DNA from: Escherichia coli | GTDB taxonomy: Bacteria > Pseudomonadota > Gammaproteobacteria > Enterobacterales > Enterobacteriaceae | Reading direction: 5' to 3' (one strand) | Assembly: GCF_048403405.1 (NCBI RefSeq) | Contig: NZ_CP183129.1 | DNA: 64,000 nt | Shown: positions 28,371-28,402 of the stretch, one piece after another | Numbering within the stretch: the first letter of the stretch is position 1 | Layout of the letters: every line of letters begins with the position of its first letter | Program-made: the position numbers and the translations under genes | Notes under the pieces: model-generated | What the model saw: the letters and a program-made list of their open reading frames with translations, nothing else | Database searches by the model: none | Told to the model about the DNA's origin: nothing

Positions 28371-28402
28371 GGGTGCGACACCTATTGTCGCCCCCTTGTC
28401 TT
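28371..28402 (+). terminator. Imperfect hairpin (GGGTGCGAC.../...GTCGCCCCC) between yadN and the chaperone gene; possible intra-operon attenuator
   Basis: 9-bp stem with one mismatch followed by TTGTCTTG; position analogous to subunit-chaperone attenuators in other fimbrial operons. Confidence 0.3.

What the first reader, a model, noticed from the sequence alone, without database searches (positions are those of the whole stretch)
28371..28402. Possible attenuator hairpin between the major pilin gene and the chaperone gene
A 9-bp stem with one mismatch lies 30 nt after the yadN stop and before the chaperone start. Fimbrial operons commonly use such a partial terminator to make more subunit than chaperone/usher transcript. 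Because it also overlaps the extended GTG ORF of the chaperone, it argues that translation starts downstream at 28433.
Basis: inference. Interest (0 to 1): 0.25.

Follow-up and report, generated by a model that had tools for sequence, protein, structure and literature searches.

The report
Hairpin after fimbrial pilin gene yadN
A stable RNA hairpin really does sit just after the major Yad pilin gene of this E. coli, at a spot where every related operon examined also has a hairpin. It is most likely an ordinary leaky terminator or mRNA-protecting stem-loop that lets the cell make more pilin than assembly machinery.

Summary
The stem is 12 bp with one U·C mismatch (28368-28380 / 28386-28398, loop CCUAU). 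It starts 27 nt after the yadN stop. ΔG is about -20.6 kcal/mol (z = -6.3), and no window in the ±3 kb background folds as well.

Comparative evidence supports selection on the structure. All 20 related pilin-to-chaperone spacers examined carry an outstanding hairpin of unrelated sequence at this junction. In K-12-type, CFT073 and other Escherichia versions it is followed by a good T-tract, as in a canonical intrinsic terminator. Of 460 complete E. coli genomes with this allele, 312 match the window across the hairpin. The two variants sampled and sequenced are both structure-neutral.

In this allele the U-tract is degenerate (UUGUCUUG). Termination is therefore probably weak, and protection of the mRNA 3' end may be the main effect. 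The stem forms in every context tested, so this is not a switchable attenuator.

Chaperone translation does start downstream, at ATT 28430 or TTG 28433. The GTG at 28373 is destroyed in 139 of the 460 genomes.

No transcript data were accessible. This is a new, uncharacterised member of a well-known kind, and interest is low.

The parts
27768..28340 (+). yadN-type major fimbrial subunit gene (190 aa)
   Evidence: RefSeq CDS in the identical allele of strain TUM14771. Pfam Fimbrial PF00419, E 2e-10. About 76% nt identity to K-12 yadN.
28341..28367 (+). A/U-rich single-stranded 3' spacer between the yadN stop and the hairpin
   Evidence: Sequence; unpaired or weakly paired in the folds.
28368..28398 (+). 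RNA hairpin: 12 bp plus one U·C mismatch (28374·28392), loop CCUAU (28381-28385), ΔG about -20 kcal/mol
   Evidence: The two variants sequenced, T28374A and A28380G, keep the fold.
28396..28403 (+). Degenerate U-tract UUGUCUUG. Its first three bases also form the base of the stem.
   Evidence: Tail score -3.66 (stem end taken at 28395) or -3.02 (28398), against -3.3 to -5.1 in K-12-type alleles. It aligns with TTTTAATTAAC of other alleles.
28373..28375 (+). GTG that opens the 'extended' chaperone ORF; not a real start
   Evidence: Lies inside the stem. It is GAG in 139/460 genomes. The extension would add 20 residues ahead of the signal peptide.
28421..28426 (+). GGATGG, a Shine-Dalgarno-like element of the chaperone gene
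   Evidence: GGATGG is kept in three of the five E. coli alleles aligned and is GAATGG in L003 and L004. It lies 3 nt before ATT 28430 and 6 nt before TTG 28433.
28430..29164 (+). Yad chaperone gene (yadV/ecpD homologue). The start is ATT 28430 or TTG 28433, not GTG 28373 or ATG 28478.
   Evidence: The ATG of K-12-type alleles aligns with ATT 28430. RefSeq uses 28430 in strains 7/2, 54214 and WP8-S18-ESBL-07, and 28478 in others. PapD_N starts at residue 26 of the 28433 product.
34305..34327 (+). Second strong hairpin, at the end of the operon (after the adhesin gene, before panB)
   Evidence: ΔG -19.5 and also a U-poor tail. All other junctions of the operon are 11-34 nt and unstructured.

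Best explanation
The hairpin is the 3'-end structure of the yadN message. It is the positional and evolutionary counterpart of the intrinsic terminator that follows yadN in other E. coli.

Transcription from the yadN promoter reaches the stem-loop 27 nt past the stop codon. That is far enough for the hairpin to form clear of a terminating ribosome (inferred). A fraction of polymerases terminates in the interrupted U-tract UUGUCUUG (inferred). The rest read through into the chaperone, usher, minor-subunit and adhesin genes.

Whether the 3' end arises by termination or by endonucleolytic cleavage of the read-through transcript in the A/U-rich stretch downstream, the GC-rich stem then blocks 3'-to-5' exonucleases. 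A monocistronic yadN mRNA therefore outlives and outnumbers the distal message (inferred by analogy with papA and malE). The result is more major subunit than assembly machinery.

The hairpin is constitutive, not a regulated switch. In this allele the stem is stronger and the U-tract weaker than in K-12-type alleles, so stabilisation probably contributes more and termination less. The chaperone's weak non-ATG start (ATT/TTG) would lower the chaperone:pilin ratio further (inferred).
For: - **Stability.** The hairpin is real, very stable and dominant in all contexts.
- **Conservation of position, not sequence.** In all 20 pilin-to-chaperone spacers examined, the best hairpin ranks in the top 0-9% of same-locus background windows, and in the top 1% or better in 15 of them. 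Stem sequences differ between clades. The set comprises this window, 3 other E. coli alleles, and Escherichia spp., Pseudocitrobacter, Yersinia, Rosenbergiella, Pantoea and one unclassified Enterobacterales genome. CFT073 has yet another version.
- **Negative case.** The one locus in that scan where an usher rather than a pilin precedes the chaperone has no hairpin.
- **Terminator in sister alleles.** There the hairpin is followed by TTTTAATTAA or TTTTTTTAAC, as in canonical terminators. The spacers are homologous at the stem base and flanks.
- **Population variation.** Of 460 genomes with this allele, 312 match the window's 40-nt hairpin region exactly. 139 carry T28374A, at the already unpaired mismatch. 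The other 9 carry a different single change. In the two of these sequenced it is A28380G, which turns an A-U pair into G·U. ΔG is -20.6, -20.9 and -19.9.
- **Specificity within the operon.** Only the post-yadN and operon-end junctions have strong hairpins.
[quoted passage not shown] The EHEC yad locus gives three transcriptional units by RT-PCR (PMC11287998). A 3' terminator structure protects papA mRNA, and an intergenic hairpin protects malE (PMC5927463).
Against: - No transcript 3'-end or coverage data exist for this locus in what I could reach. The MG1655 record annotates no terminator here.
- The U-tract in this allele is poor, and the consensus scan did not call the site. Real termination could be negligible.
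- Not all related operons need such an element. The yehD-yehC spacer is 34 nt with no hairpin.
- In this particular strain the usher carries an amber stop. The operon may therefore be non-functional here, although 456/460 genomes with the allele have it intact.
Confidence: 0.62

Rival explanations
1. Pure stability or processing element. RNA polymerase does not terminate here at all. The full operon transcript is cut by RNase E downstream of the hairpin, and the stem only shields the yadN segment from exonucleases, as in malE-malF.
For: - The U-tract is degenerate in this allele. It is similarly poor in the Yersinia and Pantoea relatives and at the fimA-fimI hairpin.
- The operon-end hairpin is also U-poor.
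- The protective-hairpin model is documented in PMC5927463.
Against: - Sister alleles have textbook terminators at the homologous site.
- 5 of 8 T after a strong GC stem can still give partial termination (general knowledge of intrinsic terminators).
Confidence: 0.25
2. The yadN 3'UTR hairpin is the body of a stable 3'UTR-derived small RNA with a trans-acting role. The precedent is FimR2, which is cut from the fimA-fimI spacer.
For: - FimR2 is a 35-nt RNA from the same relative position in the type 1 operon. It is stabilised by a stem-loop (PMC9723502) and is now annotated in MG1655.
- The two spacers share a design: a GC-rich hairpin followed by CCCUUGU and an A-rich tail.
Against: - No Rfam match: best E 4.8, far below the gathering scores.
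- The stem sequence is not conserved between yad alleles, which argues against a conserved seed.
- There is no GGA motif in or upstream of the hairpin in this allele.
- CsrA had no major effect on yadN mRNA in EHEC (PMC11287998).
Confidence: 0.06
3. Chance palindrome or DNA-level site (protein binding, recombination scar) with no RNA function.
For: - About 30 other places in the 64-kb window fold as well.
- On the minus strand the palindrome folds equally well.
Against: - 0/200 shuffles and 0/845 local windows are as stable.
- A hairpin at the same junction in 20/20 related loci, with different sequences, is the opposite of what a sequence-specific DNA site predicts.
- The two variants sequenced spare the pairing.
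- It is single-copy per genome.
Confidence: 0.05

Closest known systems
Intrinsic terminator after yadN in K-12-type, CFT073-type and other E. coli yad alleles (unannotated, uncharacterised)
   Same: - Homologous position, 32-33 nt after the stop.
- Shared stem base (CAGGG...CCCTG versus CAAGGG...CCCTTG) and shared flanks, including the GGATGG Shine-Dalgarno element.
   Different: - The upper stem is replaced by GC-rich TGCGAC/GTCGCC.
- The stem is stronger: -20.6 against -11.6 to -18.4 kcal/mol.
- The T-tract TTTTAATTAA is degraded to TCTTGAAAACAA.
- The chaperone ATG is replaced by ATT/TTG.
papA 3' terminator/stabiliser in the pap operon; differential decay in the CFA/I fimbrial operon
   Same: A stem-loop directly after the major pilin gene gives an abundant, long-lived pilin message and scarcer distal message (PMC5927463, citing Båga 1988, Bricker & Belasco 1999 and Jordi 1993; details beyond that are from my own knowledge).
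   Different: - pap also needs RNase E cleavage between papB and papA and a 5' hairpin. yadN is the first gene, so no 5' processing is implied.
- Nothing has been measured for yad.
malE-malF intergenic protective hairpin and internal terminators that set subunit stoichiometry in ABC-transporter operons
   Same: An intercistronic hairpin after the gene whose product is needed in excess. It blocks 3'-5' exonucleases or partially terminates (PMC5927463; PMC9045158).
   Different: The malE-malF element is a REP repeat (my own knowledge). The yad hairpin is single-copy per genome.
FimR2 sRNA / fimA-fimI spacer hairpin
   Same: The 3'UTR of the major pilin gene of a chaperone-usher operon, with a GC-rich hairpin and a U-poor tail (PMC9723502).
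   Different: FimR2 is conserved in sequence, carries GGA motifs and binds CsrA. The yad hairpin varies in sequence between alleles and lacks GGA in this allele.

Membership tests
Rho-independent (intrinsic) terminator | GC-rich stem of about 5-14 bp with a loop of 3-8 nt | tested here: met
   12 bp (8 G-C) with one mismatch, 5-nt loop, ΔG about -20 kcal/mol.
Rho-independent (intrinsic) terminator | Run of U (typically at least 5-6 of 8) immediately 3' of the stem | tested here: inconclusive
   UUGUCUUG gives 5/8 if the stem is taken to end at 28395, and UCUUGAAA gives 3/8 after the full stem. Tail score is -3.66 or -3.02, against -3.3 to -5.1 in sister alleles. The consensus scan did not call it.
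Rho-independent (intrinsic) terminator | Lies downstream of a stop codon on the transcribed strand | tested here: met
   27-30 nt after the yadN TAA on the + strand.
Rho-independent (intrinsic) terminator | Transcript 3' ends map to the U-tract in vivo or in vitro | not testable with these tools
   No yadN/yadV entry in the Term-seq supplements that could be searched. The supplements of two other papers are not held.
Intercistronic mRNA-protective 3' hairpin (papA / malE type) | Stable stem-loop in the spacer just after the gene needed in excess, kept across relatives | tested here: met
   20/20 related pilin-to-chaperone spacers. Only this junction and the operon end are structured.
Intercistronic mRNA-protective 3' hairpin (papA / malE type) | Upstream segment more abundant or longer-lived than downstream segment | not testable with these tools
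   Indirect only: unequal responses of yad genes (PMC13245861) and three transcriptional units in EHEC (PMC11287998). The figures are not readable here.
Regulated transcription attenuator (terminator/antiterminator switch) | Alternative structure that competes with the terminator stem | tested here: not met
   Stem pair probabilities are 0.96-1.0 for 11 of 12 pairs (0.85 for the closing pair) with 100-200 nt of upstream or downstream context.
REP/BIME-type repeated palindrome | Many copies per genome | tested here: not met
   One place per genome in 460 genomes, and none in the other 4966.
FimR2-like 3'UTR-derived sRNA | Conserved sequence with GGA motifs; match to a curated RNA family | tested here: not met
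   No significant Rfam hit. The stem sequence differs between alleles. No GGA in 28341-28400.
FimR2-like 3'UTR-derived sRNA | Accumulates as a discrete small RNA | not testable with these tools
   Needs a Northern blot or small-RNA sequencing under inducing conditions.

The most novel reading that the evidence does not exclude
The yadN 3'UTR hairpin could be more than a passive terminator. Like FimR2 from the fimA 3'UTR, it might be released as a stable small RNA. It might also act together with the near-consensus CsrA-type site at the chaperone Shine-Dalgarno (CAUGGAUGG) to tie chaperone translation to pilin mRNA fate. If so, pilin-gene 3'UTR hairpins would form a general class of regulatory RNAs in chaperone-usher operons.
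Probability: 0.06. Interest if true: 0.5.

Novelty: new member of a known kind. Interest (0 to 1): 0.2.

Why it matters
Yad fimbriae are now linked to ExPEC bloodstream infection and EHEC colonisation (PMC13245861, PMC11287998). Both studies noticed non-uniform expression along the locus without giving a cause. A conserved post-yadN terminator or stabiliser is a simple, testable cause.

There are also practical consequences:
- The chaperone of this allele is mis-annotated in many RefSeq genomes. The ATG 28478 start removes the signal peptide.
- qRT-PCR of yadN alone will overestimate expression of the whole operon.

Beyond that, the element illustrates a textbook mechanism and opens no new question.

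Tried and rejected
- **Long-range helix.** RNAalifold proposed pairing between the last codons of yadN and the chaperone Shine-Dalgarno. The duplex energy is no better than for control 30-mers from the same pilin gene in 20 loci (fraction as good 0.09-0.98). Rejected.
- **Rfam.** Only chance-level hits.
- **Experimental 3' ends.** There is no yadN, yadV or ecpD entry, and no coordinate match, in the Adams 2021 supplements. The Dar & Sorek 2018 and Choe 2022 supplements are not held. The CFA/I paper (PMC206977) is not held.
- **Annotated terminator.** MG1655 has none at this site.
- **Internal promoter for the chaperone.** TTGAAA at 28401 and TATATT at 28428 are 21 nt apart, which is too far, and the scan found none.
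- **Regulated attenuator.** No alternative fold.
- **Repeated element.** Single copy per genome.
- **Universality.** The yehD-yehC spacer (34 nt) has no hairpin, so the feature is common but not obligatory.

Full report
**Context.** The window is E. coli chromosome with pcnB, folK and then the Yad chaperone-usher fimbrial operon, all on the + strand. The operon reads as follows:
- yadN, 27768-28340, Pfam Fimbrial.
- The chaperone, ending at 29164, Pfam PapD_N and PapD_C.
- The usher htrE, from 29199, Pfam PapC_N.
- Two minor subunits.
- A 433-aa adhesin.
- panB follows.

This yadN allele is only about 76% identical to K-12 yadN. It occurs in 460 of 5426 complete E. coli genomes.

**The observation.**
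- It extends to 12 bp: C28368-G28398 up to A28380-U28386, with loop CCUAU.
- ΔG is -20.6 kcal/mol against -6.9 ± 2.2 for shuffles (z -6.3, 0/200).
- Only 0.2% of all 40-nt windows in the 64 kb fold as well.
- None of 845 windows within ±3 kb does.
- Eleven of the 12 stem pairs have probability 0.96-1.0, and the closing pair 0.85, whether 100-200 nt of upstream coding sequence or the downstream chaperone start is included.
- It is single-copy per genome and matches no Rfam family.

**Comparative evidence.** I treat this as the core of the case.

*Other E. coli alleles.* K-12-type (L002), L003, L004, L006 and CFT073 each carry a different hairpin at the same place, 32-33 nt after the stop. Each is followed by TTTTAATTAA or TTTTTTTAAC. 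Alignment shows the spacers are homologous:
- The stem base is shared: CAGGG/CCCTG against CAAGGG/CCCTTG.
- The distal flank and GGATGG are shared.
- The upper stem has been replaced, and the T-tract reads TCTTGAAAACAA here.

*Wider relatives.* A scan of one genome per species with the chaperone protein returned 19 loci.
- In every locus included in the analysis where a pilin gene precedes the chaperone, the spacer holds a hairpin ranking in the top 0-9% of same-locus windows. It ranks in the top 1% or better in 15 of the 20 spacers analysed.
- The genera are Escherichia spp., Pseudocitrobacter, Yersinia, Rosenbergiella and Pantoea, plus one unclassified Enterobacterales genome. Stem sequences are unrelated between clades.
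- The locus where an usher precedes the chaperone has none.

*Within this operon.* Only two junctions are structured: after yadN, and after the adhesin gene (34305-34327). All other junctions are 11-34 nt with ΔG above -7.

**Population variation.** Among the 460 genomes the 126-nt region has at most one difference from the window.
- 312 match the window exactly in the 40-nt hairpin region.
- 139 carry T28374A, at the already unpaired mismatch position.
- 9 carry some other single change. The two I sequenced both have A28380G, which turns the closing A-U pair into G·U.
- Predicted ΔG is -20.6, -20.9 and -19.9 kcal/mol.

Two sites are too few for statistics, but both spare the pairing.

**Mechanism.**

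*Shown.* A stable, constitutive RNA hairpin sits at a junction where relatives conserve structure but not sequence. In sister alleles it has the full anatomy of an intrinsic terminator.

*Inferred.* It ends or protects the yadN message so that pilin mRNA exceeds the distal message.

The U-tract in this allele is weak. The tail is UUGUCUUG (5/8 T, score -3.66) if the stem is taken to end at 28395. After the full stem it has 3/8 T (score -3.02). The mismatch-intolerant consensus scan did not list the site. Termination should therefore be leaky.

The GC-rich stem is well suited to blocking 3'-to-5' exonucleases. This is the role described for the papA terminator and the malE-malF hairpin (PMC5927463). 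I cannot separate the two contributions without transcript data. I assign 0.62 to a leaky terminator that also stabilises, and 0.25 to a stabiliser only.

There is no alternative fold. 'Attenuator' applies only in the loose sense of a partial terminator.

**Literature.**
- The EHEC study found three transcriptional units by RT-PCR (PMC11287998). The figures that would show which junctions break are not readable here.
- yadN is absent from the E. coli Term-seq tables I could search. That is expected for an H-NS-silenced operon.
- No terminator is annotated in MG1655.

**Chaperone start.** The GTG at 28373 lies inside the stem and becomes GAG in 139/460 genomes.
- The ATG of four other alleles aligns with ATT 28430, and the next codon is TTG 28433.
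- GGATGG lies 3-6 nt upstream.
- From 28433 the product has a 24-residue signal-like N-terminus, and PapD_N starts at residue 26.
- RefSeq is inconsistent. It uses ATT 28430 in some genomes and ATG 28478 in others. The ATG 28478 start leaves only 9 residues before the mature Asp and cannot encode a signal peptide.

The exact codon, 28430 or 28433, is open.

**Rejected ideas.**
- A long-range helix between the yadN 3' end and the chaperone Shine-Dalgarno, suggested by RNAalifold, is no better than controls.
- An internal promoter in the spacer is not supported.
- A REP-type repeat is excluded.

**FimR2 precedent.** FimR2 is a 35-nt sRNA from the fimA-fimI spacer, and MG1655 now annotates it (PMC9723502). 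Its spacer has a similar design: a GC-rich hairpin, then CCCUUGU and an A-rich tail. An sRNA role therefore cannot be excluded. However, the yad stem is not conserved in sequence and lacks GGA motifs, so I put this at about 0.06.

**Verdict.** The feature is real and under structural selection. It is an uncharacterised member of a very familiar class, the terminator or stabiliser hairpin after the major pilin gene. Interest is low (0.2). The useful by-products are the corrected chaperone start and a concrete explanation to test for the uneven yad expression reported recently.

Noticed in passing
window 29799-29801: The usher gene htrE carries an in-frame amber stop (TAG, against TCG in strain TUM14771), truncating it after about 200 codons. 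Only 4 of the 460 genomes with this yad allele have it (strains 4621, MS 69-1, TUM1226 and OX030728). Yad fimbriae are therefore probably not assembled in this strain.
   Followed up: yes
window 28430-28480: The chaperone of this allele has no ATG start. The ancestral ATG is ATT here, followed by TTG. RefSeq genomes disagree: some use ATT 28430 (244 aa) and others ATG 28478 (228 aa, no signal peptide).
   Followed up: yes
window 31812-34293: This yad allele encodes two minor-subunit genes plus a 433-aa adhesin after the usher. CFT073 has three fimbrial-subunit genes plus the adhesin.
   Followed up: partly
window 34305-34327: A strong hairpin GCACCGCCATCATCTGGCGGTGC (-19.5 kcal/mol) sits after the adhesin gene and before panB, and it also lacks a good U-tract. 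It is probably the operon-end terminator.
   Followed up: partly
window 28418-28427; L002 2199-2208: The chaperone ribosome-binding region (CAUGGAUGG here, CAGGGAUGG in K-12) resembles the CsrA-binding consensus CARGGAUGU (my own knowledge). This was not tested. PMC11287998 reports no major CsrA effect on yadN mRNA in EHEC.
   Followed up: no
L032 1675-1709 (MG1655 4543674-4543708): MG1655 RefSeq annotates the sRNA fimR2 in the fimA-fimI spacer. Its hairpin and U-poor tail (CCCUUGUGCGAUAAAAAU) resemble the design of the yadN 3'UTR in this window.
   Followed up: partly
L034 (MG1655 yehD-yehC, 2191646-2191679): The related yeh operon has only a 34-nt unstructured pilin-chaperone spacer. The post-pilin hairpin is therefore common but not universal.
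   Followed up: partly
L010: A 670-bp contig in a Terrisporobacter mayombei (Firmicutes) assembly encodes a chaperone 82% identical to this E. coli protein at coverage ~1. It is most likely contamination of that assembly.
   Followed up: no
L005 1838-3683: In strain MIN11 (O89m:H9) yadN is split by an IS3-family insertion.
   Followed up: no
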